Assembly: GCA_000002445.1 (NCBI GenBank)
Contig: CM000208.1
Coordinates: 1,120,001 to 1,184,000, forward strand
Length of the DNA: 64,000 nucleotides
Source of the DNA: Trypanosoma brucei
Lineage: Eukaryota
Direction: 5' to 3'
The notes below the pieces were generated by a model that saw only the letters and a list, made by a program, of their open reading frames with translations, was not told the DNA's origin and did not search any database. Below, piece by piece: positions 253 through 48,806 of the stretch (positions within the stretch are counted from its first letter, which is position 1; the number at the start of each line of letters is the position of its first letter). Made by a program: the position numbers and the translations under genes.

Positions 253-1140
253 ATGTCCCGGGCACCTCCACCACCGGATTTTTCACGAATTGCTGCTGAA
301 ATCCGCAAGAGGTTGGGTAATTTTGGTGATATCGCAGGGCTTACAGCTCTGGTCGGTTTTGGGGGATTGGTTTGTGCAGGTTTGTACAAATCCATTTACT
401 TCGTTGATGGCGGCTGCTGCGCGGTCAAGTTTAATGCCATCACAGGTCTGAAAAACCGAACGTACGGCGAGGGAGCCAACTTCGCCATCCCGTTTCTTGA
501 AACTCCTGTTGTGTTCGATATCCGAAATAAGCCAACAGAAGTGCTGACTGCAACTGGGAGTCGTGACCTGCAGACGGTCAACTTGGCTGTACGTGTCCTC
601 TACCAGCCGCACGTGAGCGCCCTCCCCGACATATACCGTAACGTTGGAATGGAATATGCAGAAACTGTGTTGCCATCGCTGGTGAACGAGATTATTCGCG
701 CCGTAATAGCACAGTTCAACGCCTCGGATTTGCTGGTGAAGCGCCCGGAGGTGAGCAACCGGATTGGGGTAATGTTGGCCGAACGTGCCAAGCGGTTTCA
801 TATTGACATTACGGATGTCTCCATTACCCAAATGAGTTTTGGTAAGGAATACACGAGTGCTGTAGAGGCGAAACAGGTCGCCCAGCAGATGGCGGAACGA
901 GCGAAGTGGCGTGTTGAACAAGCGGAACAGGAAAAGGAAGGCGCAATTTTGTTGGCGAAGGGTGAAGCGGAGGCGGCCAAGCTTATTGGAATGGCCGTGC
1001 AGAAGAACCCAGCCTTTATTACGCTGCGAAGCCTTGAGGCGTCCAGGACTATTGCCGATCTCATGCGACAGAAGGGGTCTGGAAGCTTCTACATCGACAG
1101 TGATACCTTGTCTCTGAACACCCAAACTATTGGACATTAG
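253..1140 (+). CDS. PHB: Prohibitin (band-7/SPFH family, PHB2-like), mitochondrial inner membrane
   Basis: 295-aa ORF with an N-terminal hydrophobic anchor followed by an SPFH/band-7 core (…VFDIRNKPTEV…LPSLVNEIIRAVIAQFNASDLLVKR…ITLRSLEAS…) and a C-terminal coiled coil, typical of prohibitins. Starts at ATG. Confidence 0.9.
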   Translation: MSRAPPPPDFSRIAAEIRKRLGNFGDIAGLTALVGFGGLVCAGLYKSIYFVDGGCCAVKFNAITGLKNRTYGEGANFAIPFLETPVVFDIRNKPTEVLTATGSRDLQTVNLAVRVLYQPHVSALPDIYRNVGMEYAETVLPSLVNEIIRAVIAQFNASDLLVKRPEVSNRIGVMLAERAKRFHIDITDVSITQMSFGKEYTSAVEAKQVAQQMAERAKWRVEQAEQEKEGAILLAKGEAEAAKLIGMAVQKNPAFITLRSLEASRTIADLMRQKGSGSFYIDSDTLSLNTQTIGH

Positions 1141-5580: not shown

Positions 5581-8500
5581 GCAATATCGACATTCGTACA
5601 TTTTATTTTTTTTGAGGGATTTACCAGTGACTACCGTGCGTTGTCAATGTATCTGTTTTTCCATACATATCGCTGTACCTCCTGTGTGGCAGTAGAACGG
5701 GTATCAGTGAAGCTTCGGAAAAAATAAAACGTTTACAAACAACCCGAAGCAGAGGTGGTACGGGTTCACACGTGGATCCTGTGGTCACAACCAAATGTCA
5801 GTTTACTCAGCTCGCCTCTGTTTGTCCTTTTTATCTTTACTTGCGCCAACTGGCAATCTGGGGTAGTTGCAGAGAACTCTACTTCCTAGGAGGATTTCCG
5901 GTGTGTGGGGAAGTGATGTCTGCTCGGGTGGTTTCGTAACAAGGATGCGGCTGTTGTTTGGATCACGGCGTCCCTGTCGCTCCAACAGTGCAGCGGTTAC
6001 CCGCTCTTGGACCGATGCCCAAAAAGTAAAAAGCCATGACGGAGAGGAACCGTTGGTCGCTTGAGCTGCGGGACCGGAACCCGAAAAAAAAAGGTCAAAA
6101 TATCAAACAGCACAAATGGGTTTGCGCAGAACGTGGCTTTCAATCTAAGAGTGCAGGTGTACTAACATTGCGCGGGCCGCAGAAACACTACATGACCAAC
6201 GACAGTCCCTTTCCACCCCACACTGGCGGAACCATAATCCACACTGAATATGATAAAAAAACACACTCCAGTGAGGAATCTGTGGGTTCAAATTGATTTA
6301 GCAGAGAGGCTCGACAATACGTCATGGAATAAAGAGCAGAGGTCAGCTTTAGCACATCATTCCAGTGGTGGAGAAACGGATAGGCACACAAAGTGAAAAC
6401 CGACCGCATCAACCCAACACCAATGAACAAAGTGATAACACCACCAGTTCAACCCCTGGAGAAAATGAAGCGATATATGGACCTCGCGGCTACATATTTC
6501 ACACGTAAAATGGACTAGTGATACGTCACGGGATGAAATACTGCGAAGTACAACCGCAAACGGAGTCGCAAGAAATAAAGAGGCAACGGTAACTCGAAGA
6601 GAATGCAAGTATTCCAACTAAGGGCTCCCGAGCGCCGGAAACGAGAGGGCATCCAGTGAACTACCCAGCAGGCACATCTGAGCCGCTACAATGCACGCGA
6701 TGTGGCTTTGTATCACAATCAAAAGGGGGAACAACACCAAACACCAATATTCAACACCGCAGAGGCCATCCCCTGGAGAGTAACGCTGGTACAAAACGGA
6801 GCCGTTCCATCACAGAACAAGAGGTATCCCTCATTTGGGACACGGTAACTATAGGTGTAAATGACACCTGTTGCACGCAATGCCGTCATACGCATGTATC
6901 AAAAGACAGCCTGATGGGGCACTTCGGGGGAATGCATAGACAGCATCCCTTCTCCGTAGCAAAAGAATCTCCACCACCGCTCCGGAGCTTCAACGTCAGA
7001 GGATTTCATCTACACTTCACGTTCGTAAACCGAAATCAGACGTCCCACTCAACATCAGGTTCATCTATACATCGCCATCAAAAAACATGAAATCTGCGTT
7101 GAAAGGAAACATACACACTCCAACGACTGCGAAGGGAATCCCACCCACATACTCGTGCGCTCAAGCCTAAAGTGCTCCGCAGTTACTTCGGGCTTGAGGG
7201 CGAAAATATGCAGAAGATAGTGTTCACCAAGAACCTTGCACAATTCCTCCTAGAACTTGAGAAACCCCTCATTCTCTTCCAACATGTACTTTCTTCATTC
7301 GAGAGGAACACCCCTATAAAGGAGAATAGACTACACAAAAAGCTGCCCACTCCTCTGAATGAAAATTGTAAACTTCACTATGCTCTTCTACGCTTGGCTC
7401 AAAAAAAAAAAAAAGAGGCAGAAGCCTTTCACTCTCAAGTAAGCTGTTTTCGCCATTACGGAAGACCGAGGACTAAAAGCTGAACGTTTGCAACTGGTCA
7501 CGCATAACTAGTTCGGACATAACCTACAAATGTCTTCCGTAAAGCAAATATAGTGCGCTCCAACCTAGATGGCAATTCGTTGACGGCACGTCCACTGAGG
7601 AGCATTATAAAAAAAAAACGTTTAAGCGATTGAGGTCGCGACGACACAAGCAACTTGTACAGCGACCTCATAGATAATGAAATCGCCACCATCATTCGAT
7701 CAGCCGCACGACCGGCCGCCAGCAACGGCAGTAATGGGACGTGAAGATCGCTTTGATGCGCGTTTCACCCTAATCCAGTTTCGAGTGTAGCGTATTCCCC
7801 TTTGCGCTTCTGCTTTATGTCTCCCACCAAAATATCAACGATGCATATTAGGTGCACAGTTCTGCCCTTGTTTTCTTTGATTGCAATCTCATCTGCTATT
7901 CCACTGTTTATCCAAGCAACGTGGTGGGAGAAAATAAGCTGCACCGAAATCACCGCATTCCTTTTACTGACTGTGAAAATCACCCTTCCATACACAGCGC
8001 GGGATTCCATCCTCCGCGCGACTCTGTCTTTCATTGTTTCCAGTAACGTATTTAGCACCTTTTCAATTGGCACCGCTTCCGCACAATGACTGCATCCCAG
8101 TATTCAGATGTCCCTTTAATTCTGTATTCTTCCATGTTGCCGAAGATTACCGTTTCTGTGCCCGATGAAGCGTCTAAACTCACCAGTTCATTTGTTCAAA
8201 CGTTTCAGTCCTTATTGAATATCCCCATTTTTTTCGGCGTATGAGCCCTCCTCCATTTGTCTTTTGCGTTTGCTTTTATACCCACCCACGTATGGCAAAT
8301 TTGTGTACACTCTGGAGCCAATGTCCAAGGAGCTTTAAGTATGGAGTGCACCTTGATTTTTGGTGTCGGAGCACCAGACCTCCACTGAATTCAGCCATTC
8401 AGGTATTGGATGACTTCTAGGATATTGCCGGTTTATTATGTCTGAAAAGCATCCTCTTTTGGCGCTTGATTGCATGTAATATTCCGTCGCCCTCGTGTTT

Positions 8501-11500
8501 GCCGCTTTTCAAACAAATATCAGTCGTGCTTTTTTGAGCATGTCTTGTTTGTTTGCGTGCGACGAAATCTCAGCAATGTTGCCCACCAACTGGGGTTGGA
8601 TTCTTTTGTGGACTGGGTACGTTTCCTTTGCCATCCTGCACGGCCGTAGCGGAAAAACACGACGAGGGGATGCTGTTCTCGAGTTTTTGCTTTGTCTACC
8701 ATCTGTGTGTCTTCGTCCGCTAAAATCAACAATGCTCTGGAGAATCTGATCCGAGACCGGGCCTCAGCACAGCAGTGGGGAGTTTGAGATCCTTTGCAAG
8801 ATTTGCGGCATAACACAAGTGAAGGAACCGAGACCTGAATTTGGCAACCGAAAGGAGGATGAGGTGGCGGGGTTTGAGGCGATTGTGGGTGTTGACGGGA
8901 TCGCGGCAATGCCGGAACAACATGGAAGATGCCGTCAAAAAGACGATTAACATCTGCAGTGAGGTGGCAAAGAAACACAGCATTACAGCTCGTAGGGATG
9001 ATCGACGGAAGCGGAAAGTGTGCGGCAACGCTAGAAGAGATGTGTCACATTGGAACGGAGGCGGTGCGTGATTCCAGGAAAACGGGAAGTTGTTGGGACA
9101 ATTAAACCGGTGCTACCGGTAACAATATCGGTGCCCCAAGGGATGCAGAGCTTGAGAGAGCAACAGAAATGTTGGCAGGCGATAGCGATCCCATGAGCCC
9201 CATAATCACTTTAAGGAAACGTTTCACTGGACGATTTTGAGAGGAAAGGAAACGCGAAATCTGGGCGTGGCAGCCACATTGGCCGCTAGCAAGGAATGAT
9301 TTCAAGTTTGGGCGGAATATTTTACGGAAATGAACGAAACTGCATCCGGAACGAATCATCAGGAAGAACTAAGCCCTAAGACCAGTTTCCCTATTAAAGT
9401 TTATTTACCATTGACCTCACAAAAATTTTGAAACTCAACGGTGAATCTAGCGGCTTTTCGGCTACTCCCCCAGACCTGGAAAAAAAAAACAGTTTCCCTG
9501 AACCCGAAAAGCTCTGCCCGCTCAGCAAACTTACGCCATGCACAATCCCGTGAAGGTGACACATCCCCAAAACACTCTGCACAGCCCATTTCGCTGGACT
9601 GCACACTTCTTTCATACCGCTAATATTTTCACCCCTAAATTAACGTGCCCGGACACTCACATGTATACCTGTAAAATTATGCAAGTGCTTTGACGAAGCT
9701 ACACCCACGTTGTGTTGGGTGCTTTTGTAATCCTATGGTGTTCAGCGCTCTCCCATACTTTAAAAAGCATACTACGCCGTTGTTTTTAGTACTACACCCT
9801 TCCCGTTTCCATTGGCACGCCCTCCGTAGTGGCATTTGCCGCCAGAATCCCTGTTCTAGAGGAGGTTTGTTGCATTTTTACGCTTCTTTCGGTAGCGGCC
9901 GTTTGTACGCACAGGGTGGTGTACATGCGTATATGTAGTGGTTGTTATTTTTTATGGAAAAAAAAAGCTGTTGAACCCTGTGACTTTAAGGTGCTGAAAA
10001 TAAGATTGGGACGAGGTTACATCTTATCCGTGGATAACCTTATAGGTGTGGAAGTGGGGGGACCATTCTCGAGAGTTACTTGGGGGTCAAACACACATAC
10101 AAGCGGCAGGCAAATACACTGAAAGGGGTGTGCCCGTGTTGGTGTTTGTGTGTGCGCGCAAATGTCGCCCCTGGCGTTTTTAATGGATATGTAAGCTTTG
10201 AAAGCAACCTCCTAGGGATTTGAAACATCTGTTGGATTCTGAAACTTGACAATTTCAGACTCGCGCAACACTGAGTAGCCTTTTTGACTTACTTACGTTT
10301 TGTGACCAAGCGGAGAAGTGAGGGAGACGCGATGGCGAAGAACCACTTCTTCAGATTCACTAGTTGGGGTAACAAAAGTTCCAGCCCCCTTTCAGGCGTA
10401 GTGAACAGCGGAGGCACAACTAATGAGGGCGGTGGATTCTTCACCAACTTCGACCCACCTCATTAAAATGAATGCCTCCTTACCGCGCCAACGCAACGGC
10501 AGGTGGCTAAATCGCGCATATTTTTGTGCCCATTCCCTCGCCACACAACTCTATGAAAATATCTTCCTCGAGGAGCTAATGGGAAAACATATCTCAGTCA
10601 CCATTTGCGAACGCAACTTCGTATGTTGAAGCGGGGGTTGTGTGAGGTGGGAACCGCGAAGGAAAGGTTGTACGTTGTGGTGGCGGTTGTGAGGTGGCGC
10701 TGTTTTTTTTTTCCTCCCTTTTTTTCTTGAGTGGGGATTACGGGGTTGCCGGTTCGTGGAGTATTATAACGCATGCTTTCCACCTGTAAGCTGCGGTGGT
10801 CCTCCTTTCCCCCAATCATCTCGCCCCGTACGGACAATAATGGAAGTGAAGTTTGTTTTGAGTGTGGCGTTGTCAGACCATTTGGAGGAAGTTATAGTTA
10901 AGGGATATAAGTCCCCGTGGAGAAAGTAAACGCCTGTCCAAATACTTATTCTATGTCACATTGTACGGAAACGCCACCACCCATATACTGGTCGTACCGT
11001 CAGTTGAAGTTCTCCATCCTGGCGTCAACGAAGTGCTTTTAAGGGTTCTCCTAGCGTCTAAACTCGTCCACTTTCACTGATGCCGTTTGGGTACACTCCC
11101 TCCAACCCAACCTTAACTAGCCTCTCTACACACCGCTTCATATCTTCAAACACATTTTTGTACCACCGTGAACTTTTGTTCTACACCTTTATTATGACAC
11201 ACATCCGTAGGAAGTAGCATCCCCTCTCCGCCACAAAAAAAGAAAATTATTGGGTGCGACAGTGTTCCCAGTATAATGGCTCTCGCCATGTGTTTTTTGG
11301 TTTTATTTTTCAGTGAGCCGTTCGCAAAGGTGTATTTCCTCCTCCGTAAGCTTGGCCTGTGCTACAAACATTGATACGATATCATAATATTTCCACATAA
11401 CCCCCTCAATATCATGACTACCTCCCCACATGAACCACATTTGCTCCGATAAGCGCCTTCCCACACCCACACACACCCCCCACACACACACACGCTGACT

Positions 11501-12323
11501 GAAATCTTAAACTACATAGGGGAATACCCTATTTGCATCACAGCGAAATTCACCTTGGCTGTGGGAACCCCACCGAACAACTTCACGCTTGCAAATTTAC
11601 TCGGATCACAACGGATACTTAAAAATTTTCCCAACACAACTACATTCCACACCGCAGTGTGGCACCCCACGAGGTGTCCAAAATGAACATCCTCTCAATT
11701 TTCCTTATTCCTCACATACTTACAAAACAGAAGAGAAGCACATGCGGGGAGGAGGGGGGGGCGAGGAAAGATGCACCCAACCCATTTCCATCGGATATCA
11801 TAAATCACCAGGGGTAACTTGTTCTTTTTTTTTTTTTAAGTCTTCCCAAACCCTCCCCAAATATCAAAACGCCCCCCCCCCCAGCCCACAACACCACCAG
11901 AAATTGGTGGCAGAAATCGCTCCCCTCCCTTTCCGGTCTTTTCGTTGGCCGGTGAAGTGCAGAATGGAAAACATCACGTCGAGTTCACCTTCACTACGCA
12001 CCAACTATCCGCACTCTTCGCCTCCACAACGATGCGGTACATCCTCAGAACCCCACCACCTCCAAAAAAGAAGGCGGTGATGGAATGTTATTATCCCTGT
12101 CTTTCCTTCTTTTCCATCGTGAATATTAGCGCTATCAATAATACCCTCACATAATATCTCTACACAAGCCCATTACAGACACCGCTTCAGCTAGTTTTCA
12201 TCCCTTTGGCGGTATATCTCGATGGGGAAATTATGCGTCATTCACCCATGATATCATCACAACAAGTAAACATACCACACACCAATTCGGAGTGTCAGAG
12301 AATGTGGTATGATGTTGTTGGGT
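5581..12323. other. ORF-poor convergent strand-switch region (putative Pol II transcription termination zone)
   Basis: Plus-strand genes end at 5580 and the minus-strand gene array ends at 12324, so transcription converges here. Across about 6.7 kb no ORF looks protein-like. The sequence has complex composition with scattered homopolymer tracts and no tandem repeats. Confidence 0.5.
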
Positions 12324-13493
12324 CTACTTTTTATTCAGAGGTCCAATAAGCCACCGGGGGTTCGCGGCGTTTGAAACGTTGCAGACAGTACTAAATTTTA
12401 CGTACTTACGAGAGCCCCACACGGTGTGGATTTCAGTAGTATAACGTTCCAACAAGTATTTGTACGCTTCCCGTTGGGTGGAAGAGTCCCGTAGTGCCCT
12501 ATACCAACTCGTCTCGTTGATGAATTGGAGCATCTTTTCGCTTCGAGCGGCGGGTGGGCCTGGGAAGTGCAAGATCATGCCATTTTTAACCGGCACCCCG
12601 GACGGATAGTGAAAATATCGTGTCTCGTAATCGAGAGACATTATTCCCCTTCGAAGCAACAACTTTCGATTCGCATGTTTTGGCCTGGTAACACTCCATA
12701 TAAACACCATTGTCCACATGCTCTGGTCGCACCACCACTTGAAACTCCGTCGTTTCAGAGCGAAGAAAACCTCCAAAGCTTCCTTTAGTGCCCACACTCT
12801 GGCTATCATCCCTCCTCCATTAAGGTGTGATTCCCCCGAGGGAGTTTCCCTCAAAAGAGCTTGCGTTCCCTCTTTAATGGAAACCGCGAGTGCTCCCTCA
12901 TAGAGGTTCATACACATATCCCTCGGTTTAACCTTCCGAGTGTCTACACCCGTCATGATATACGTTTGTGGGGCATGGCAATTCTTTTCAGCGGCGAATA
13001 ATAACGGTGGTGCCATTTTCCCATGAAGAGTGTCTTCCTCGCTAAACAACTCTCGCGTGCTCGGTGTTGTGTTCATAAAATACTCGATTGCTTCTTCTCT
13101 TCTCGCTGCTTCTGAGAAGAACGTATCGCCGCCGTCAAATATCACCATCACATCATTATCCTGCATCCTCTTCCACAACATATACTTTCGAATCCACGCC
13201 CACCTCCATGCATGCACATAAACCGCACCTGCGCCCACCGTCGCAACTCTCACATTTGTAAGAACAGAACTCAGAAGCATTCGACACCACCCTGGGGAAG
13301 GTTTCGTTTGCACCACAACATAATACACTCCTGGCGAATGGTCATTTAAACTACTATTTTTCACCCACCGCTTGGCCTCCCTCTTCCTGAAATCCATTAC
13401 CCCCATAAACATTAACACAATCAACAGCATTACCGCCGCCATGACATATAATCTTTTTCTCGCATCTCCCCCAACCCAGGGCCCCTTTAACAT
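12324..13493 (-). CDS. Type II membrane protein, putative Golgi glycosyltransferase-like (GT-A fold?)
   Basis: Short cytosolic tail, a single transmembrane segment (VMAAVMLLIVLMFMGVM), then a large lumenal domain with a DxD-like motif (VMVIFDGGDTFF). The track ORF starts at 13703 with TTG through a polypyrimidine tract. The first in-frame ATG is about 13493 (MLKGPW…), preceded by a polyY tract and AG. Confidence 0.45.
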   Translation of the reverse strand: MLKGPWVGGDARKRLYVMAAVMLLIVLMFMGVMDFRKREAKRWVKNSSLNDHSPGVYYVVVQTKPSPGWCRMLLSSVLTNVRVATVGAGAVYVHAWRWAWIRKYMLWKRMQDNDVMVIFDGGDTFFSEAARREEAIEYFMNTTPSTRELFSEEDTLHGKMAPPLLFAAEKNCHAPQTYIMTGVDTRKVKPRDMCMNLYEGALAVSIKEGTQALLRETPSGESHLNGGGMIARVWALKEALEVFFALKRRSFKWWCDQSMWTMVFIWSVTRPKHANRKLLLRRGIMSLDYETRYFHYPSGVPVKNGMILHFPGPPAARSEKMLQFINETSWYRALRDSSTQREAYKYLLERYTTEIHTVWGSRKYVKFSTVCNVSNAANPRWLIGPLNKK

Positions 13494-13570: not shown

Positions 13571-13910
13571 ATAAGCAATATCCATACAGTCTCGATTCAT
13601 TGGAGGAGAATATGAGATAAGTGACAAACATGCCTCCACCGCAATATGGAACCACAACAACAAAAAAAAAAAACATCACCCGTTTAGTATATATAAACCA
13701 CAAAAAGAAATTATAGCCGCCTCCAGGGCAGCGTGTACGTATATTACGCTATAAATTGTAATGGAAATATATTTATTTAAAATAACGTTTGAGGATATGC
13801 GCTTTTGTATTCCACCGGAGAAGCGGATGCATACATATACGCATACACATATATACACTATGGTATACACAAAATAAAATAGCAAATTCGAATAAGAATA
13901 AAATAGTTGT

Positions 13911-14651
13911 TTACGCTAAAAGAAAAAAAGGGATGAGAAACATTGCTTTACCAGCATTTGAAGAAAAGTGGCATGTGTTGGTGACCGGTGCAGGTCGCGG
14001 TGACTCCGTGGGACCGGGTGCCTCATTTGATGCATTTGTGGTTCCTTTTTTACCAACTTGAGTCTCTTCTCCATCTTTTCCCTTTCCCTTTCCATTTCCA
14101 TTTCCATTTTCTCCTTCTCCTTCTCTTTCTTTTTCCTCTTCCTTTCCTTTCCCACCAGATCCGCTTTGAACTTTACCACTTTCCGCTTTATCGTTTTTAC
14201 TGTCACTTCTTCCCCCTCCAGCACCATTTGTTGTACTCTTTTGTTTTTCATTGGTTGCGGGTTTACACACATCCACACCCCAGTTTGCATTGGCGTGTCC
14301 GACACCGTGCGGATTTACGTTCCCTCCTCCACCGGGAAAAGCTTGCGTCAATGCACCGATGTCACAAGTGTAGTTTCGGTGATCTCCCGGATACGGAATT
14401 TCTATTATACAGAAGGGACTCCGCTCATTACTGACTTGTTGGGCCGCATGGAATCGACAGTTTGTCCGGACATATTTACACAAACCGGCGATGCCCGCGG
14501 GCCCTTTATCCTCCTGCATAGTTTTGACATCAGGACAGGGAGGCGGTCCCAATGGTGGGTCCACTTCTCCCATTGGATATTGGACCACATTTCCTCTTCC
14601 AAATAATACCGACAGTTCAATTAACACAAGCAACACTTTCAGGTTATTCAT
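13911..14651 (-). CDS. Small secreted Cys-containing protein with a G/K/E-rich low-complexity stalk and C-terminal GPI-anchor-like signal (tandem copy A)
   Basis: N-terminal signal peptide, a mature domain of about 100 aa with 6 Cys, a G/N/K/E-rich linker (…KGKEEEKEREGEGENGNGNGKGKGKDGEE…), and a C-terminus of small residues then a hydrophobic tail (…SSNAGKAMFLIPFFLLA). The track start at 14657 is TTG; the ATG is 2 codons in. Confidence 0.6.
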   Translation of the reverse strand: MNNLKVLLVLIELSVLFGRGNVVQYPMGEVDPPLGPPPCPDVKTMQEDKGPAGIAGLCKYVRTNCRFHAAQQVSNERSPFCIIEIPYPGDHRNYTCDIGALTQAFPGGGGNVNPHGVGHANANWGVDVCKPATNEKQKSTTNGAGGGRSDSKNDKAESGKVQSGSGGKGKEEEKEREGEGENGNGNGKGKGKDGEETQVGKKGTTNASNEAPGPTESPRPAPVTNTCHFSSNAGKAMFLIPFFLLA

Positions 14652-15052
14652 TTCCAAACTTCCTGAAAACCAAAGTCACATTTTAAAAAAAAAAACACCA
14701 TTGGAATATTTTCATTCATACAACACAAGCCCTCACATTAAAACATCATTCACAGCAGTATGCTTTTAAAAATAGTGCATTGGGTTGAAAACACTACACT
14801 TTGAAGAACAAAAAACATCACCCGTTTAGTATATATAAACCACAAAAAGAAATTATAGCCGCCTCCAGGGCAGCGTGTACGTATATTACGCTATAAATTG
14901 TAATGGAAATATATTTATTTAAAATAACGTTTGAGGATATGCGCTTTTGTATTCCACCGGAGAAGCGGATGCATACATATACGCATACACATATATACAC
15001 TATGGTATACACAAAATAAAATAGCAAATTCGAATAAGAATAAAATAGTTGT

Positions 15053-15772
15053 TTACGCTAAAAGAAAAAAAGGGATGAGAAACATTGCTTTACCAGCATT
15101 TGAAGAAAAGTGGCATGTGTTGGTGACCGGTGCAGGTCGCGGTGACTCCGTGGGACCGGGTGCCTCATTTGATGCATTTGTGGTTCCTTTTTTACCAACT
15201 TGAGCCTCTTCTCCATCTTTTCCCTTTCCCTTTCCATTTCCATTTTCTCCTTCTCTTTCTTTTTCCTCTTCCTTTCCTTTCCCACCAGATCCGCTTTGAA
15301 CTTTACCACTTTCCGCTTTATCGTTTTTACTCTCACTTCTTCCCCCTCCAGCACCATTTGTTGCACTCTTTTGTTTTTCATTGGTTGCGGGTTTACACAC
15401 ATCCACACCCCAGTTTGCATTGGCGTATTCGACACCTGTCGGGTCGCGGTCGTCGCCGGCAGGAAAAGCTTGCGTCAACTCACGTGTGTTGCATGTGTAG
15501 TCACGTTTATCTCCCGGATACGGAATTTCTATTATGCAGAAGGGACTTGGTTCATCCGTCATTTTTTCGTTTGCGCCGACCCGACATTTGGTTTTCACGA
15601 AATTGCACACATTTATGACACCATCGGGCCCCTTGCTCGCTTCCCACACGTAAGCGGGGGGACAGTGACCCGGTCCCAATGGTGGTCCTTCCACGGGATC
15701 TTGGGCCAAATTTCCTCTTCCAAATAATACCGACAGTTCAATAAAAACGAGCAACACTTTTATGCTATTCAT
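15053..15772 (-). CDS. Small secreted Cys-containing protein with low-complexity stalk and GPI-anchor-like signal (tandem copy B, divergent ectodomain)
   Basis: Same architecture as copy A, with identical signal peptide, stalk and C-terminus. Residues about 25-125 are only about 50% identical to copy A while the 6 Cys positions are kept. Confidence 0.6.
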   Translation of the reverse strand: MNSIKVLLVFIELSVLFGRGNLAQDPVEGPPLGPGHCPPAYVWEASKGPDGVINVCNFVKTKCRVGANEKMTDEPSPFCIIEIPYPGDKRDYTCNTRELTQAFPAGDDRDPTGVEYANANWGVDVCKPATNEKQKSATNGAGGGRSESKNDKAESGKVQSGSGGKGKEEEKEREGENGNGKGKGKDGEEAQVGKKGTTNASNEAPGPTESPRPAPVTNTCHFSSNAGKAMFLIPFFLLA

Positions 15773-17029
15773 TTCCAAACTTCCTGAAAACCAAAGTCAC
15801 ATTTTTAAAAAAAAAACACCATTGGAATATTTTCATTCATACAACACAAGCCCTCATATCAAAATACCATTCACAACAGTATGATTTAAAAATAGTGCAT
15901 TGAGTTGAAAACACTACATCATGCATAGCAGCGTGTCCACCGAATAACCCAATCCCACAATCACCATTGATTACACGTGGGAGACACCCACTAACAAGTG
16001 TGGTTATTTAACCTTTTTTTTTAAAAAAAAAGACGTTGTCATAAGTAAAAAAAAAACAGAAACACAAAGGCACACACACACACGTATTTATTTATTTATG
16101 TACGGGGAAGTAACTTTTATTTCATGTGGGCAGTATTAAAAAGACGACAAAATTGCGTAAAGAGGAGAGGCAGGAAAAGGAATTATGACAAGAATACAGA
16201 CACATGCATCTCCAACAAAATGTTATTGCAGCCGAGGGGCTCAGACATGTTTTAGGGGAAATACATAAAACACGGGCCCTTCTCTATGGCCAATGATTCA
16301 GAGGAAAAAGAAACAAAAAAAACAAAAAGAAACAACATATGCAAATCAACGAGCAGAACTGGAGGACAAAACAAATGACAGAGAGTACTTCAACTTCTTT
16401 TTCATTAATCCCCCCCCTTCCGTCCCGCACGAGTGGGATAAAAGTAACAAACAACTCGGCAACCAAAGTTTTTTTTTTAAAAAAAAAAGACTTCGTTTAA
16501 CAGAAACAAAAAAAACAAACAAAAACACACAATTATCTGTTAGAGGAATGGTCACGTAACCAATAAAACAATGCACTCATCCGAGACGAAGGATTTAACA
16601 AGCTGACAAATAAACGATACATAAAACCTCACGCAGCCTTTTGTTTAGCAAAAAGCCGAGTCGCAACAGGGCTCTATTAATTCGTTTTCATTATTGAGGT
16701 GACATGATAGTGAGACAATATCCATATAAGGATGGAAAGACACACAAGCACACACAAAAAAACAAACAAGGAAAGTTAATTACTTCTATTATGAAAGTAG
16801 AGTGCCCGGTATATCGCAGTTCTAACAACGATAGTGCTGTGAATTTCATGTAAACAGTTGGGAGTTAAACAACTCTGTGCAACATCATTGTGAGTTAAAG
16901 ACATACGCACATATTCTGTATTATCCATCCTCATCATTCTGCTACTTTCCAGTCATCTCTCCATCTCTATATATTTCTTTTTTTTTCTTATCTTATGGGA
17001 TAAGAGACATCTGGTTCCATATTAATACA

Positions 17030-43105: not shown

Positions 43106-45646
43106 CTATAGCTTGTCCAGGAAGGTGTCGAGGCCCGGAATGTCTGGTTTGAGGCCCTTGCGTTGGCGAATGCTCAGCACCAGAGTGTTTGCCTGTGACT
43201 TGGGGTCAAGCGGGTCACCAGGGTACTGCTGCCAGTGGTCAAACACACACTGCGGGAATGCCTGGCCTCCGGTTCCGGCACGAAGGTCAGCGGTGAAACC
43301 GAACGACTCGGCGACTGGGAGGTATGCACGAACGTTGTAGATGGGTGTGCCTGGGCGGTTCTCCTCGCCGATAATCACACCACGGCGGCGTGTCAGTACA
43401 CCGTAGATGCCTCCCATGGCGTGCTCCACAGTCTGAATGTCAACCTGGAACATCGGCTCCATCAACCGCGGCGTAGCAGTCAGGCAGCAGGCATAGAACA
43501 CACGGCGGGCAGTGGGGATGATCTGACCGCCACCACGATGGATGGCATCAGCGTGCATCGTCACGTCCTCCACGTTGATCCTCACACCACGCATGTTCTC
43601 GTCACAGAGCACACCCTCACGTGTCGCCCATTGCCAGGCCGCAACGAACGAATCTTTCATTTCCATCATGTTCTGCACACCCTTCGTCACGTCCACAACC
43701 ACGTTGGGTCCGCGATTGTCGGGACCGTAGCACCAGATCTTACGCGCCTCAGCCACATCCCATTCGAACTTGTCCGCAAGGAAGCGGGCACGAGTCTTGG
43801 GGTCCGCCTCGGAGCCGGCATTTGCGCCATCCTCAATCTCAACGCACAGCTCCTCCGTCAGCGGCGCGCCGCGGCAGAATAGACGATTGTGTTTGTTAGC
43901 AGACTTGGAGAGACATTGTATCGACGACACATCCGTCACAGTTTCACGGAACGACACCACAGGTTCTGAGATCTTTAGCGGTGCGCCGTTCATAAAATCT
44001 TCCTGAAGATCCTTGAGGCAAATCTCCAAGTGCAGCTCACCAGCACCAGCAACAATGTGCTCACCGCTTTCCTCAATCGAACACACAACAAGGGGATCGG
44101 ATTTTGCAAGGCGCTTCAGCCCTTCCACCAACTTGGGAAGGTCCGACGGGTTCTTGGCCTCCACAGCAACACGGACGACAGGTGAGACGGAGTATTTCAT
44201 GTCACGAAGCGGGTGCGGGGATTCACCATCGTCAGTGATGGTGGCAGACTTCACAATGTACTTGTCCACTCCCACGAGACCAACAACGTTACCGCACGGC
44301 ATGTCCTCCACGGCCTCCTGGTAGCGACCCATCATCAGCACCGTACGCTGCACCGGCTTGTCCTCGTACAGATCTTGCTTCTTACCATGGATGTAGTTGT
44401 TACCCATGATACGCACCTTCTGACCGCATCGAACCTTACCAGAGAAGATACGACCGAACGCAAAGAAGCGGCCACGATCGGCGGTCGGTACCATCTTGCT
44501 AATGTACAGCATCAGCGGTGCATTCGGGTCGCAGTTCTTGATACCCATGTAGTATTTCTCATCTGGGTTAGACTCACCGGAGTAGAGCATCTCAGCACGG
44601 TAGCTCTGTGCCTTCTTGGGTGAAGGCAGGTGCGCTACGATCATCTGCAGCAGTGTCTCGGCAGCAGGAAGGAACTTCATCATGATAGATTTCAGTAACT
44701 TCTTGGGAACCTGCTCGCGCTCCTCGGTTGTCAGGTTAATGTTGAGTGACTTGAGCATCTTCTCCACCTTCTCAGCCTTCTCTGTCATTACTGCATCGAA
44801 GATCTGGTAGATGGGGTCCAAGCAGAACTGGCAGAACGCGCGACGTACACGCTCACCTGCGGCGTTTGTCTCACTCTTGATCCATTTCTTGTTCTTCGCG
44901 TCAAAGAAGTTATCACCCCATAGTCGCTCACACATCTTGGACTCATCAACACCGAACTTGGATGCGTACATCTTCGCAAAGCGGGTGACAGAGAAGGCCC
45001 AAGCCTGCAGGCCGGAACCAATGGCGACTGTACCCTTCTCGGGGTACACCTGCACGTCACCCATGACGGGGTCATTGTAGGTGGCGATCACAACGTTCAC
45101 GTTTTGCAGTGTCTTCACGAAGCCCTGGTATGCCTCTTCGGGGTCCAGCTGTAGCTCCAGAATAGCACGATCCACCTTGTTGATGAAGACTACGGGGCGA
45201 ATACGCTCAGTCAGAGCCTGGCGAAGCACCGTTTCCGTTTGCACGCACACACCCTCCACACAATCAACGACCACTAGGGCACCATCGGTCACACGGAGTG
45301 CAGCAGTAACCTCGGAACTGAAATCAACGTGCCCGGGTGAGTCAATAAGATTGATCAAGAAGTCACGGCGGTCATCGGGAAGGTCACTGATAATCTCGGG
45401 AGGTACATGGTAATGCATCGAGATGGCAGTCGACTTGATTGTGATACCACGGGCAATTTCGTCCGCACGAGTGTCCATGATACGTTTGTCACCGGCGTCC
45501 TCCATCTTAATGATACCAGCGGCACCGACAAGCGAGTCGGACAGAGTGGACTTGCCGTGGTCGACGTGCGCGATCACGGACATATTACGGATCTGTTCGG
45601 GGTAGTCCATGAGGGCACGGACCTCATCAACGGTGAAGTTGACCAT
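43106..45646 (-). CDS. EF2: Elongation factor 2 (copy 1)
   Basis: 846 aa with the G domain (AHVDHGKST…, [13 protein letters not shown]) and the diphthamide-site region (…[15 protein letters not shown]…). Unambiguous eEF2. Confidence 0.97.
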
Positions 45647-46265: not shown

Positions 46266-48806
46266 CTATAGCTTGTCCAGGAAGGTGTCGAGGCCCGGAA
46301 TGTCTGGTTTGAGGCCCTTGCGTTGGCGAATGCTCAGCACCAGAGTGTTTGCCTGTGACTTGGGGTCAAGCGGGTCACCAGGGTACTGCTGCCAGTGGTC
46401 AAACACACACTGCGGGAATGCCTGGCCTCCGGTTCCGGCACGAAGGTCAGCGGTGAAACCGAACGACTCGGCGACTGGGAGGTATGCACGAACGTTGTAG
46501 ATGGGTGTGCCTGGGCGGTTCTCCTCGCCGATAATCACACCACGGCGGCGTGTCAGTACACCGTAGATGCCTCCCATGGCGTGCTCCACAGTCTGAATGT
46601 CAACCTGGAACATCGGCTCCATCAACCGCGGCGTAGCAGTCAGGCAGCAGGCATAGAACACACGGCGGGCAGTGGGGATGATCTGACCGCCACCACGATG
46701 GATGGCATCAGCGTGCATCGTCACGTCCTCCACGTTGATCCTCACACCACGCATGTTCTCGTCACAGAGCACACCCTCACGTGTCGCCCATTGCCAGGCC
46801 GCAACGAACGAATCTTTCATTTCCATCATGTTCTGCACACCCTTCGTCACGTCCACAACCACGTTGGGTCCGCGATTGTCGGGACCGTAGCACCAGATCT
46901 TACGCGCCTCAGCCACATCCCATTCGAACTTGTCCGCAAGGAAGCGGGCACGAGTCTTGGGGTCCGCCTCGGAGCCGGCATTTGCGCCATCCTCAATCTC
47001 AACGCACAGCTCCTCCGTCAGCGGCGCGCCGCGGCAGAATAGACGATTGTGTTTGTTAGCAGACTTGGAGAGACATTGTATCGACGACACATCCGTCACA
47101 GTTTCACGGAACGACACCACAGGTTCTGAGATCTTTAGCGGTGCGCCGTTCATAAAATCTTCCTGAAGATCCTTGAGGCAAATCTCCAAGTGCAGCTCAC
47201 CAGCACCAGCAACAATGTGCTCACCGCTTTCCTCAATCGAACACACAACAAGGGGATCGGATTTTGCAAGGCGCTTCAGCCCTTCCACCAACTTGGGAAG
47301 GTCCGACGGGTTCTTGGCCTCCACAGCAACACGGACGACAGGTGAGACGGAGTATTTCATGTCACGAAGCGGGTGCGGGGATTCACCATCGTCAGTGATG
47401 GTGGCAGACTTCACAATGTACTTGTCCACTCCCACGAGACCAACAACGTTACCGCACGGCATGTCCTCCACGGCCTCCTGGTAGCGACCCATCATCAGCA
47501 CCGTACGCTGCACCGGCTTGTCCTCGTACAGATCTTGCTTCTTACCATGGATGTAGTTGTTACCCATGATACGCACCTTCTGACCGCATCGAACCTTACC
47601 AGAGAAGATACGACCGAACGCAAAGAAGCGGCCACGATCGGCGGTCGGTACCATCTTGCTAATGTACAGCATCAGCGGTGCATTCGGGTCGCAGTTCTTG
47701 ATACCCATGTAGTATTTCTCATCTGGGTTAGACTCACCGGAGTAGAGCATCTCAGCACGGTAGCTCTGTGCCTTCTTGGGTGAAGGCAGGTGCGCTACGA
47801 TCATCTGCAGCAGTGTCTCGGCAGCAGGAAGGAACTTCATCATGATAGATTTCAGTAACTTCTTGGGAACCTGCTCGCGCTCCTCGGTTGTCAGGTTAAT
47901 GTTGAGTGACTTGAGCATCTTCTCCACCTTCTCAGCCTTCTCTGTCATTACTGCATCGAAGATCTGGTAGATGGGGTCCAAGCAGAACTGGCAGAACGCG
48001 CGACGTACACGCTCACCTGCGGCGTTTGTCTCACTCTTGATCCATTTCTTGTTCTTCGCGTCAAAGAAGTTATCACCCCATAGTCGCTCACACATCTTGG
48101 ACTCATCAACACCGAACTTGGATGCGTACATCTTCGCAAAGCGGGTGACAGAGAAGGCCCAAGCCTGCAGGCCGGAACCAATGGCGACTGTACCCTTCTC
48201 GGGGTACACCTGCACGTCACCCATGACGGGGTCATTGTAGGTGGCGATCACAACGTTCACGTTTTGCAGTGTCTTCACGAAGCCCTGGTATGCCTCTTCG
48301 GGGTCCAGCTGTAGCTCCAGAATAGCACGATCCACCTTGTTGATGAAGACTACGGGGCGAATACGCTCAGTCAGAGCCTGGCGAAGCACCGTTTCCGTTT
48401 GCACGCACACACCCTCCACACAATCAACGACCACTAGGGCACCATCGGTCACACGGAGTGCAGCAGTAACCTCGGAACTGAAATCAACGTGCCCGGGTGA
48501 GTCAATAAGATTGATCAAGAAGTCGCGGCGGTCATCGGGAAGGTCACTGATAATCTCGGGAGGTACATGGTAATGCATCGAGATGGCAGTCGACTTGATT
48601 GTGATACCACGGGCAATTTCGTCCGCACGAGTGTCCATGATACGTTTGTCACCGGCGTCCTCCATCTTAATGATACCAGCGGCACCGACAAGCGAGTCGG
48701 ACAGAGTGGACTTGCCGTGGTCGACGTGCGCGATCACGGACATATTACGGATCTGTTCGGGGTAGTCCATGAGGGCACGGACCTCATCAACGGTGAAGTT
48801 GACCAT
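46266..48806 (-). CDS. EF2: Elongation factor 2 (copy 2, protein identical to copy 1)
   Basis: Identical 846-aa translation. The nucleotide sequence is identical to copy 1 apart from one synonymous site (45366 vs 48526). Confidence 0.97.

What the first reader, a model, noticed from the sequence alone, without database searches (positions are those of the whole stretch)
13668..15918. Tandem pair of GPI-anchored surface-protein genes whose repeats are identical except for a sharply bounded ~330-bp ectodomain cassette
The two 1142-bp repeat units share intergenic/UTR sequence, signal peptide, low-complexity G/K/E-rich stalk and GPI-signal C-terminus at near-100% nucleotide identity. The segment encoding mature residues about 25-125 (the 6-Cys N-terminal domain) is only about 50% identical at the protein level. 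Its nucleotide boundaries are abrupt: identity runs up to …ccagtttgcattggcgt, then diverges, then resumes at …tttcctcttccaaataataccgacagttcaat. This mosaic of homogenised flanks around a hypervariable cassette is what diversifying selection on an exposed domain, or segmental gene conversion from other loci, would produce. The stalk also carries a repeat-length difference (EGEGENGNGNGKGKGK vs EGENGNGKGKGK). I do not recognise the family (it is not procyclin- or VSG-like), so it may be an undescribed small surface-antigen family.
Basis: seen in the sequence. Interest (0 to 1): 0.85.

Follow-up and report, generated by a model that had tools for sequence, protein, structure and literature searches.

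The report
Trypanosome surface-protein pair with swapped heads
Two neighbouring Trypanosoma brucei genes (Tb927.10.4380 and Tb927.10.4390), already catalogued as predicted GPI-anchored surface proteins, share a nearly identical stalk, anchor signal and 3' flank. Their cysteine-rich head domains are anciently diverged, a mosaic best explained by segmental gene conversion, which is a known pattern in this parasite.

Summary
The window is T. brucei brucei TREU927 chromosome 10. The pair is Tb10.70.2850/2840, which I infer to be Tb927.10.4380/4390.

- **Mismatches between the two units:** 5/623 in the 3' block (stalk, GPI signal, 3'UTR, spacer), 97/283 in the head cassette, and 17/214 in the 5'UTR/signal-peptide block. 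The 5' side is therefore not "near 100%" identical.
- **Substitution rates:** the cassette has dS about 0.89 (pS up to 0.83 in its core), dN 0.36 and omega about 0.41. The rest of the CDS has dS = 0. This rules out a recent duplication followed by fast adaptive divergence. It fits old heads beside flanks that gene conversion has homogenised.
- **Other assemblies:** T. b. gambiense and T. b. equiperdum each carry one unit. It is a block mosaic: A-like 5' end, B-like first cassette part, and a third variant of the Cys5-Cys6 loop (permutation p <= 5e-6).
- **Family status:** it is not undescribed. Savage 2012 listed both genes as predicted GPI-anchored and measured their transcripts. Jensen 2009 found both raised in stumpy forms.
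- **Limits:** I found no homologue outside T. brucei, no Pfam or PDB match, and no usable structure model. Surface location remains a prediction.

This is a new instance of a known kind and of moderate interest.

The parts
13662..14803 (-). Repeat unit A (1142 nt): splice region and 5'UTR, gene A, 3'UTR and spacer
14804..15925 (-). Repeat unit B (about 1121 nt; homology to unit A ends at about 15918)
13911..14651 (-). Gene A CDS with stop, 246 aa. It is Tb10.70.2850 / XP_822686, inferred to be Tb927.10.4380.
   Evidence: the ID mapping is inferred from gene order
15053..15772 (-). Gene B CDS with stop, 239 aa. It is Tb10.70.2840 / XP_822687, inferred to be Tb927.10.4390.
   Evidence: the ID mapping is inferred from gene order
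14297..14588 (-). Head cassette of A (codons about 22-121, 6-Cys domain), the divergent block
15427..15709 (-). Head cassette of B
14297..14361 (-). Sub-cassette 2 of A, the Cys5-Cys6 loop. Three variants are known: A, B, and the shared T. b. gambiense / T. b. equiperdum form.
15427..15488 (-). Sub-cassette 2 of B. It is 16% diverged from T. b. gambiense against a background of about 1%.
14382..14420 (-). Conserved island inside the cassette (SPFCIIEIPYPGD): 1 mismatch in 39 nt. The B counterpart is 15509-15547.
13977..14264 (-). G/K/E/S/N-rich low-complexity stalk of A. The 12-nt insertion relative to B lies at about 14104-14115.
13914..13964 (-). Predicted GPI-addition signal of A (…HFSSNAGKAMFLIPFFLLA), identical in B (15056-15106)
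   Evidence: BigPI and FragAnchor results in PMC3378594
14589..14651 (-). Predicted signal peptide of A (MNNLKVLLVLIELSVLFGRGN). B: 15710-15772, 18/21 residues identical.
   Evidence: signal-peptide prediction in PMC3378594
14652..14803 (-). A's upstream region, with a poly-T tract and an AG 11 nt before the ATG (inferred trans-splice acceptor). B: 15773-15925.
   Evidence: sequence; the function is inferred
13662..13910 (-). Shared 3'UTR and spacer of A, 100% identical to B's (14804-15052) except at the unit end
12324..13430 (-). Downstream neighbour: ESAG3-like gene (Tb10.70.2860), the last gene before the convergent strand-switch region. This is context, not part of the repeat.

Best explanation
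The locus is Tb927.10.4380/4390. It is a T. brucei-specific tandem pair encoding small predicted GPI-anchored glycoproteins, each with a signal peptide, a roughly 100-aa six-cysteine head, a roughly 95-aa G/K/E-rich stalk and a GPI signal.

The mosaic identity profile comes from uneven concerted evolution. Gene conversion or unequal exchange between the copies keeps the 3' 630 nt (stalk, GPI signal, 3'UTR, spacer) practically identical. The two head cassettes are old lineages with near-saturated silent sites, and they are not homogenised.

Two reasons could explain why the heads escape homogenisation. Their roughly 34% nucleotide divergence may block heteroduplex extension, or selection may keep two distinct heads. 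Both are inferred.

Short conversion or recombination tracts also shuffle sub-blocks between copies and alleles. This produced the single-copy mosaic seen in T. b. gambiense and T. b. equiperdum, which carries a third variant of the Cys5-Cys6 loop.

Functionally (inferred), the locus displays alternative heads on one common stalk and anchor. Published transcript data show low levels in cultured bloodstream forms, enrichment in stumpy forms for both genes, and enrichment in proventricular forms for Tb927.10.4390 only.
For: **Identity of the genes.** A matches Tb10.70.2850 at 100% and B matches Tb10.70.2840.

**Architecture.** There are hydrophobic N- and C-termini, no internal transmembrane segment, 6 aligned Cys and 1-2 N-glycosylation sequons. 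GPI and signal-peptide predictors were positive in PMC3378594.

**Rate heterogeneity.** The cassette has dS 0.89, dN 0.36 and omega 0.41. The remaining 121 codons have 0 synonymous differences over 80.7 sites. pS reaches 0.72-0.83 in codons 41-80, and 16 of 49 identical-aa codons in the cassette use different codons, against 0 of 118 outside it.

**Block discordance.** The T. b. gambiense / T. b. equiperdum unit:
- matches A at 13 of 14 informative sites in alignment columns 23-186 of the four-unit alignment;
- matches B at 74 of 76 in columns 220-445;
- is a third type in columns 447-508 (B versus T. b. gambiense dS 0.47 there, against 0.02 in cassette part 1).

A 3SEQ-like permutation gives p <= 5e-6. 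Background divergence between TREU927 and T. b. gambiense is about 1%, against 16% in the loop window.

**Micro-conversion.** The conserved island has too few silent changes (P = 0.013).

**Real duplication.** The junction has its own substitutions.

**Expression.**
- Both genes are raised in stumpy forms (PMC2771046).
- By RT-PCR, 4390 is high in proventricular and bloodstream forms, and 4380 is low and constitutive (PMC3378594).
- Both have low RPKM in cultured bloodstream forms and lie 2-3 kb from a convergent stop (PMC3332058).

**Precedent.** Gene-conversion mosaics in T. brucei tandem arrays, and brucei-specific duplications of surface-protein genes, are already documented (PMC1855330, PMC2854126).
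Against: - Only four sequences from three assemblies were available, so the direction, timing and donors of the exchanges cannot be resolved.
- No donor was found for the A-type head, or for the three B-specific patches, in the window or in protein databases.
- The single copy in T. b. gambiense or T. b. equiperdum could be an assembly collapse.
- Nei-Gojobori estimates are unreliable near saturation.
- Surface and GPI localisation is prediction only. The gene IDs did not appear in the text-held supplements of a bloodstream-form surface proteome or of a spatial proteome.
- Microarray and RT-PCR signals could cross-react between copies that share identical 3' halves.
- No usable structure was obtained (pLDDT 36-42), so the idea that the variable loop is exposed is untested.
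Confidence: 0.72

Rival explanations
1. A recent tandem duplication in the T. b. brucei lineage was followed by rapid adaptive (diversifying) point-mutation divergence of the exposed head. It is also the general reading given to brucei-specific surface-gene duplicates in the T. b. gambiense genome paper.
For: The flanks are almost identical, and T. b. gambiense and T. b. equiperdum carry one unit. The Cys5-Cys6 loop has a raised omega: 0.86 for B versus T. b. gambiense and 0.49-0.64 for the other pairs. PMC2854126 proposes this reading for similar loci.
Against: Synonymous divergence in the cassette is near saturation (dS 0.89; pS up to 0.83), while it is 0 in the adjacent 121 codons. Overall omega is 0.41, with pN significantly below pS (p = 0.001). 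The B-type head is shared almost unchanged with T. b. gambiense (dS 0.02), so the heads pre-date the split of the subspecies.
Confidence: 0.07
2. A duplicated copy received the A-type head by ectopic segmental gene conversion from a third, unlinked or unsampled donor, such as a subtelomeric or strain-specific paralogue or a divergent allele. This would be head replacement rather than long-term retention of two heads in the array.
For: The boundaries are sharp. The A-type head occurs only in TREU927 among the available proteomes. B carries three short patches whose donor is not A. Ectopic conversion is documented for the adjacent ESAG3-like gene Tb10.70.2860 (PMC1855330).
Against: No candidate donor exists in the window, among 5.8 billion clustered proteins or among 1.84 billion representatives searched by HMM. 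The same paper reports that ectopic conversion is very rare in T. brucei tandem arrays.
Confidence: 0.15
3. It is an assembly artefact. A and B are two divergent alleles of a single-copy locus that were stacked in tandem in the TREU927 reference.
For: Two other assemblies show one unit. PMC2854126 warns that assemblies confuse copy number with allelic variation.
Against: The B-to-A junction (…GATGTTTTTTGTTCTTCAAAGTGTAGTG…) differs by substitutions from both the A 3' end and the B upstream sequence, which a stacking error would not create. Gene-specific RT-PCR and array probes gave different profiles for the two genes, although this would also be seen for alleles.
Confidence: 0.06

Closest known systems
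Tb927.10.4380 / Tb927.10.4390 (Tb10.70.2850 / Tb10.70.2840), the 'T. brucei spp.-specific protein' predicted GPI-anchored gene family of Savage et al. 2012 (PMC3378594)
   Same: These are the same genes, with 100% protein identity. They were already predicted to carry a signal peptide, a GPI signal and N-/O-glycosylation, and their transcripts have been profiled.
   Different: The papers found here do not describe the head-cassette mosaic, the dS contrast, the copy-number difference from T. b. gambiense and T. b. equiperdum, or the third loop variant. No function or localisation has been reported.
[quoted passage not shown] 2010, PMC2854126)
   Same: The pattern matches: tandem duplicates of species-specific genes for predicted secreted or GPI-anchored proteins, located next to strand-switch regions, with gene-conversion tracts that include UTRs, a single copy in T. 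b. gambiense and divergent paralogues in T. b. brucei.
   Different: This pair is absent from Table 1 of PMC2854126, which does list the EF-2 duplication in the same window. According to PMC2854126, the arrays defined in the 2007 study had more than 3 gene copies, so this pair would not have been included. Here the silent-site data argue for old heads rather than recent rapid divergence.
Segmental gene conversion that builds mosaic VSG genes in T. brucei
   Same: It works in a similar way, by replacing internal coding segments between related GPI-anchored surface-protein genes while the conserved 3' parts stay constant. This comparison rests on my own knowledge and on the abstract of PMC7015903.
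   Different: It is not a VSG. There is no Pfam VSG domain and indeed no Pfam hit at all. The protein is 246 aa long and sits in a chromosome-internal Pol II unit, not an expression site. There is no archive of donors, and there is no evidence of switching within an infection.
Procyclins (EP/GPEET), and dimorphic GPI-anchored antigens such as Plasmodium falciparum MSP2
   Same: These are small GPI-anchored proteins with a low-complexity repeat region that varies in length. Like MSP2, this pair has conserved ends flanking a di- or polymorphic central block that recombines. The comparison rests on my own knowledge.
   Different: There is no sequence similarity: the HMM search found only T. brucei copies. 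Procyclins lack a Cys-rich head and are transcribed by Pol I. For MSP2 the variants are alleles, whereas here two variants sit in tandem in one genome.

Membership tests
Tb927.10.4380/4390 family (T. brucei spp.-specific predicted GPI proteins) | Sequence identity to the deposited proteins XP_822686 and XP_822687 | tested here: met
   A matches P0001 at 100% identity and coverage. B was found by exact look-up as EAN77859 / XP_822687.
Tb927.10.4380/4390 family (T. brucei spp.-specific predicted GPI proteins) | Restricted to the T. brucei complex | tested here: met
   Only T. b. brucei, T. b. gambiense and T. b. equiperdum proteins were found among 5.8 billion clusters. A profile search of 1.84 billion representatives gave only P0002 as a full-length hit.
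GPI-anchored surface protein | Cleavable N-terminal signal peptide | tested here: inconclusive
   A hydrophobic segment spans residues 3-18. A predictor was positive in PMC3378594. No predictor is available among these tools, and there is no experimental evidence.
GPI-anchored surface protein | C-terminal GPI-addition signal (small omega residues, a short spacer and a hydrophobic tail) with no internal transmembrane segment | tested here: met
   The C-terminus reads …HFSSNAGKAMFLIPFFLLA. Hydrophobic 9-mers occur only at the two termini. BigPI and FragAnchor were positive in PMC3378594.
GPI-anchored surface protein | Demonstrated GPI anchor and surface localisation | not testable with these tools
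   No protein-level data were found. The IDs are absent from the text-held supplements of PMC4587319 and PMC10361982.
Tandem paralogues under concerted evolution by gene conversion | Strong heterogeneity of silent divergence along the alignment | tested here: met
   dS is 0.89 in the cassette and 0 in the rest of the CDS. The longest identical run is 395 nt, reached by 0 of 5000 permutations.
Tandem paralogues under concerted evolution by gene conversion | Discordant relationships between adjacent blocks when a third sequence is added | tested here: met
   The informative-site pattern runs as an a-block, a b-block and a private block. Permutation gives p <= 5e-6.
Tandem paralogues under concerted evolution by gene conversion | Paralogues within a genome are closer to each other than to the orthologue in the homogenised block | tested here: inconclusive
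   In the 3' block, A and B differ at 3 internal sites. Each differs from T. b. gambiense at about 6-7 sites. The numbers are too small to decide.
VSG / VSG-related | VSG N-terminal or C-terminal domain (Pfam), about 450-500 aa | tested here: not met
   There were no Pfam hits at E <= 1. The proteins are 239-246 aa long.
Procyclin (EP/GPEET) | EP or GPEET repeats and homology to procyclins | tested here: not met
   There are no EP or GPEET repeats in the sequence. No procyclin was found by homology search.
Genes under pervasive diversifying selection | dN/dS above 1 in the variable region | tested here: not met
   Omega is 0.41 over the cassette, and pN is below pS (p = 0.001). The highest local value is 0.86, in the Cys5-Cys6 loop for B versus T. 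b. gambiense, which cannot be distinguished from neutral.

The most novel reading that the evidence does not exclude
The locus could be a balanced, recombining head-cassette polymorphism in a non-VSG GPI-anchored protein of transmission stages (stumpy and proventricular forms). Several ancient head and loop variants (A, B and the T. b. gambiense / T. b. equiperdum loop) would be kept in the T. brucei population by host- or vector-driven balancing selection. They would be reshuffled onto one constant stalk and anchor by gene conversion and sexual recombination, with copy number varying between strains. That would make it a polymorphic 'invariant' antigen, analogous to the dimorphic merozoite surface proteins of Plasmodium.
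Probability: 0.22. Interest if true: 0.55.

Novelty: new member of a known kind. Interest (0 to 1): 0.33.

Why it matters
Non-VSG surface proteins of the stages that carry T. brucei between mammal and tsetse are candidate ligands and transmission-blocking targets.

This pair shows that what looks like a young, fast-evolving duplicate can be two old head domains riding on a freshly homogenised stalk and anchor module. That changes how "species-specific, rapidly diverging" surface genes in the T. brucei genome should be read.

The locus also offers a small, tractable place (1.1-kb units) to study where conversion tracts stop. It adds a copy-number and isoform difference between T. b. brucei and T. 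b. gambiense / T. b. equiperdum that is not listed in the published comparison.

The genes themselves are already catalogued, so this is an increment rather than a discovery of a new kind.

Tried and rejected
- **Pfam.** No hit for either protein at E <= 1.
- **PDB sequence profile search.** No hit at E <= 1.
- **Profile HMM of the head against 1.84 billion representatives.**
  - Only the T. b. gambiense copy is real.
  - P0016 matched through its repeated immunoglobulin V-set 'P-x-D-x-G-D-Y-T-C' F-strand motif. I rejected it as a short motif multiplied by repeats.
  - P0017 also matched only through short repeated stretches; it has no Pfam family and was not pursued.
- **AlphaFold2.** The full-length model (pLDDT 36.5) and the head-only model (pLDDT 42) are too poor, so I ran no fold search.
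- **Exact-protein look-ups for A and B in assemblies.** Not on record, so no further strains could be brought in.
- **Other copies in the window.** None.
- **tRNA, Rfam and bacterial promoter/terminator scans.** Nothing relevant.
- **Cell-surface phylome families (PMC3605285).** The pair is not one of the listed families.
- **Supplement searches.** I searched the supplements of a spatial proteome, a surface proteome, a salivary-gland scRNA-seq study and the H3.V/base J paper. None held the IDs. One further paper had no supplements held as text.
- **Literature searches for newer names of the genes.** Nothing found.
Full report
**1. What is there**

The window is Trypanosoma brucei brucei TREU927 chromosome 10. 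The protein encoded at 13914-14651 on the minus strand is 100% identical to "hypothetical protein Tb10.70.2850". The protein encoded at 15056-15772 on the minus strand is Tb10.70.2840 by exact look-up.

Gene order runs from the ESAG3-like gene, through A and B, to the EF-2 pair. Ouna et al. describe Tb927.10.4380 as the gene just upstream of an ESAG, 2 kb from a convergent stop, and Tb927.10.4390 as 3 kb from it (PMC3332058). From these I infer A = Tb927.10.4380 and B = Tb927.10.4390.

The wider context is as follows.
- The pair and the ESAG3-like gene (12324-13430) are the last three genes of a long minus-strand polycistronic unit. That unit also holds a PUF protein, a SAP-domain protein and the two EF-2 genes.
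- Downstream lies a gene-poor convergent strand-switch region of about 6.7 kb, at 5581-12323. It has no tRNA or Rfam hit.

**2.

Direct repeats with spacings of 1142, 1130 and 1121 nt, together with a base-by-base alignment, show two units: 13662-14803 and 14804-15925.

| Block | Mismatches A vs B | Notes |
|---|---|---|
| 3' block (stalk, GPI signal, 3'UTR, spacer) | 5/623 | plus one 12-nt stalk indel |
| Head cassette (A 14297-14588; B 15427-15709) | 97/283 | plus 6-nt and 3-nt indels |
| 5' block (splice region, 5'UTR, signal peptide) | 17/214 | 92% identical |

- The clustering is far beyond chance. Fisher's test gives p = 3e-48, and the longest identical run of 395 nt was reached in 0 of 5000 permutations.
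- Cassette protein identity is 51%, and all six cysteines align.

Four corrections apply. Unit B is about 1121 nt. The cassette is about 290 nt. The 5' side is only 92% identical. The cassette contains a conserved island (SPFCIIEIPYPGD; 1 mismatch in 39 nt).

**3. It is a real duplication**

The B-to-A junction reads …GGGTGATGTTTTTTGTTCTTCAAAGTGTAGTG…. It joins the end of a unit to the start of a unit, but differs by substitutions from both A's 3' end (…TTTTGTTGTTGTGG…) and B's upstream sequence (…GCATGATGTAGTG…). Stacking two alleles by mistake would not create such a junction. I cannot check reads, so this is an inference.

**4. Protein architecture**

- Each protein has an N-terminal hydrophobic segment (residues 3-18) and a roughly 100-aa head with six Cys.
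- A roughly 95-aa stalk follows, rich in G, K, E, N, S and T. It ends in …HFSSNAGKAMFLIPFFLLA.
- There is no internal hydrophobic segment.
- An NAS sequon is present in all copies, and A has an extra NYT sequon.
- Savage et al. 2012 reported both genes positive with BigPI, FragAnchor and a signal-peptide predictor, with predicted N- and O-glycosylation (PMC3378594).
- Upstream of each ATG lies a poly-T tract and an AG 11 nt before the start codon. This is the usual layout of a trans-splice acceptor (sequence; the function is inferred).

**5. Why the cassette differs: silent sites decide**

Nei-Gojobori estimates for A against B:

| Region | dS | dN | omega |
|---|---|---|---|
| Cassette | 0.89 | 0.36 | 0.41 |
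| Remaining 121 codons | 0 (0 of 80.7 silent sites) | 0.011 | not defined |

- In the cassette core (codons 41-80), pS is 0.72-0.83, which is saturation.
- Of the 49 cassette codons that encode the same amino acid, 16 use different codons. Outside the cassette the figure is 0 of 118.
- pN is significantly below pS (p = 0.001).

A recent duplication followed by adaptive point mutation would leave silent sites untouched, so that reading is rejected. The heads are old. By contrast, the last common ancestor of the two 3' blocks is no older than the split from T. b. gambiense. A and B differ at 3 internal sites there, and each differs from T. b. gambiense at about 6-7. So either the flanks have been homogenised, or a foreign head was written into a young duplicate. 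Either way, segmental gene conversion is the mechanism.

**6. Related sequences show block shuffling**

T. b. gambiense DAL972 (L001) and T. b. equiperdum GCA_003543875.1 (L002) each carry one unit between the same neighbours. That unit is a mosaic (columns are those of the four-unit alignment).
- Columns 23-186 (5'UTR and signal peptide) match A at 13 of 14 informative sites.
- Columns 220-445 (cassette part 1) match B at 74 of 76. B against T. b. gambiense has dS 0.02 there.
- Columns 447-508 (the Cys5-Cys6 loop) are a third type: KIHDVVTAFPHPGGDPDPDGLKY, against DIGALTQAFPGGGGNVNPHGVGH in A and NTRELTQAFPAGDDRDPTGVEY in B. B against T. b. gambiense has dS 0.47 and omega 0.86 there.

A 3SEQ-like permutation gives p <= 5e-6. 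Across 7 kb, TREU927 and T. b. gambiense differ by about 1% per 150-nt window, but by 16% in the loop window and by about 5% over B's 5' end.

Seen against the T. b. gambiense / T. b. equiperdum allele, B of TREU927 carries three short foreign patches:
- 5'UTR, 15855-15903;
- signal peptide, 15742-15765;
- the Cys5-Cys6 loop, 15427-15488.

Their donor is not A, and it is not in any database searched. The conserved island inside the cassette has fewer silent changes than expected (P = 0.013), which also points to short conversion tracts.

**7. Most likely mechanism**

*Shown:* there are blocks with very different coalescence depths, and adjacent blocks have discordant relationships.

*Inferred:* recombination between the tandem copies, and between alleles during genetic exchange, keeps the long identical 3' block uniform. 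It stops at the head, either because about 34% divergence blocks heteroduplex extension or because selection keeps two heads. Occasional short tracts move sub-blocks. The result is alternative heads on a common stalk and anchor.

Expression data from the literature:
- Both genes are raised in stumpy forms: 2.6-fold for B and 3.6-fold for A (PMC2771046).
- By RT-PCR, 4390 is high in proventricular and bloodstream forms, while 4380 is low and constitutive.
- Both are well below the median RPKM in cultured bloodstream forms, and both rise after CTR9 RNAi, like other genes near transcription stops.

Protein-level evidence is lacking.

**8. Comparison with what is known**

- The genes themselves are catalogued (Savage 2012) but uncharacterised.
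- The phenomenon is known. Jackson 2007 described conversion mosaics, including UTRs, in T. brucei arrays. That paper even reports ectopic conversion involving the adjacent ESAG3-like gene Tb10.70.2860.
- Jackson et al. 2010 described brucei-specific duplications of surface-protein genes with divergent copies, and read them as recent rapid divergence. This pair is missing from their Table 1, although the EF-2 duplication in the same window is listed.
- The pair is not a VSG, a procyclin, or any cell-surface phylome family listed in PMC3605285.
- There is no homologue outside T. brucei, no Pfam or PDB relative, and no usable AlphaFold model.

**9. Verdict**

This is a new, well-resolved instance of a known kind of locus. 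The modest new points are:
- the saturated silent divergence of the heads beside identical flanks;
- the third loop variant;
- the unlisted copy-number difference between T. b. brucei and T. b. gambiense / T. b. equiperdum.

Interest is moderate to low, at about 0.33. It would rise if population data showed a balanced, recombining head polymorphism in a transmission-stage surface protein.

Noticed in passing
window 43106-45646 and 46266-48806 (minus strand): There is a tandem duplicate of elongation factor 2 (846 aa each, start-to-start 3160 nt). It is listed as a T. b. brucei-specific duplication, single copy in T. b. gambiense, in PMC2854126 Table 1.
   Followed up: partly
window 12324-13430 (minus strand; the ORF extends to 13703): The gene just downstream of the pair is ESAG3-like (Tb10.70.2860). 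It is 99% identical to a 435-aa T. b. equiperdum annotation and 51-57% identical to other chromosome-internal ESAG3-like genes. Jackson 2007 reports ectopic gene conversion between it and an ESAG array 1.17 Mb away. The 435-aa annotation would start only about 30 nt after repeat unit A ends, so the internal ATG at 13430 (MAAVMLLIV…, a signal-anchor-like start) may be the true start.
   Followed up: partly
window 5581-12323: This roughly 6.7-kb stretch between convergent transcription units has no ORF of 200 aa or more, no tRNA and no Rfam hit. It holds only a (CA)n microsatellite at 11460-11493 and three ORFs of 144-163 aa that look unconvincing.
   Followed up: partly
window 15855-15903, 15742-15765 and 15427-15488: Copy B of TREU927 differs from the T. 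b. gambiense / T. b. equiperdum allele in three short, dense patches: 9 substitutions in about 50 nt of 5'UTR, 6 in 24 nt of signal peptide, and the Cys5-Cys6 loop. Copy A is not the donor, and no donor was found in any database searched.
   Followed up: partly
window 13716-13732 and 14858-14874 (mRNA strand): Both 3'UTRs carry an identical GC-rich hairpin, GCTGCC-CTGGA-GGCGGC, followed by a T-rich run. The bacterial terminator scan picked it up. It might be a 3'UTR structural element, but its identity in the two copies says nothing because the whole block is identical.
   Followed up: no
window 13977-14264 and 15119-15385 (stalk-coding region): The stalk is encoded by a long purine-rich tract on the coding strand. 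It is the only place in the 3' block that varies in length. All four copies differ there: EGEGENGNGNGKGKGK, EGENGNGKGKGK, EGEGENGNGKGKGK and EKERENGNGNGKGKGK. This suggests replication slippage.
   Followed up: partly
window 253-1140 (plus) and 283-1137 (minus); also 43235-43882 and 46395-47042 (plus): Long ORFs lie antisense to, or overlap, real genes, for example opposite the EF-2 genes. They are most likely not genes.
   Followed up: no
A residues 88-96 (window about 14364-14390): The motif PGDHRNYTC resembles the immunoglobulin V-set F-strand motif (D-x-G-x-Y-x-C). It drew a weak multi-repeat hit to a metazoan Ig/Sushi protein (P0016; E = 1e-5). I judged it a chance motif match, and no Ig fold could be tested because the models were poor.
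   Followed up: partly
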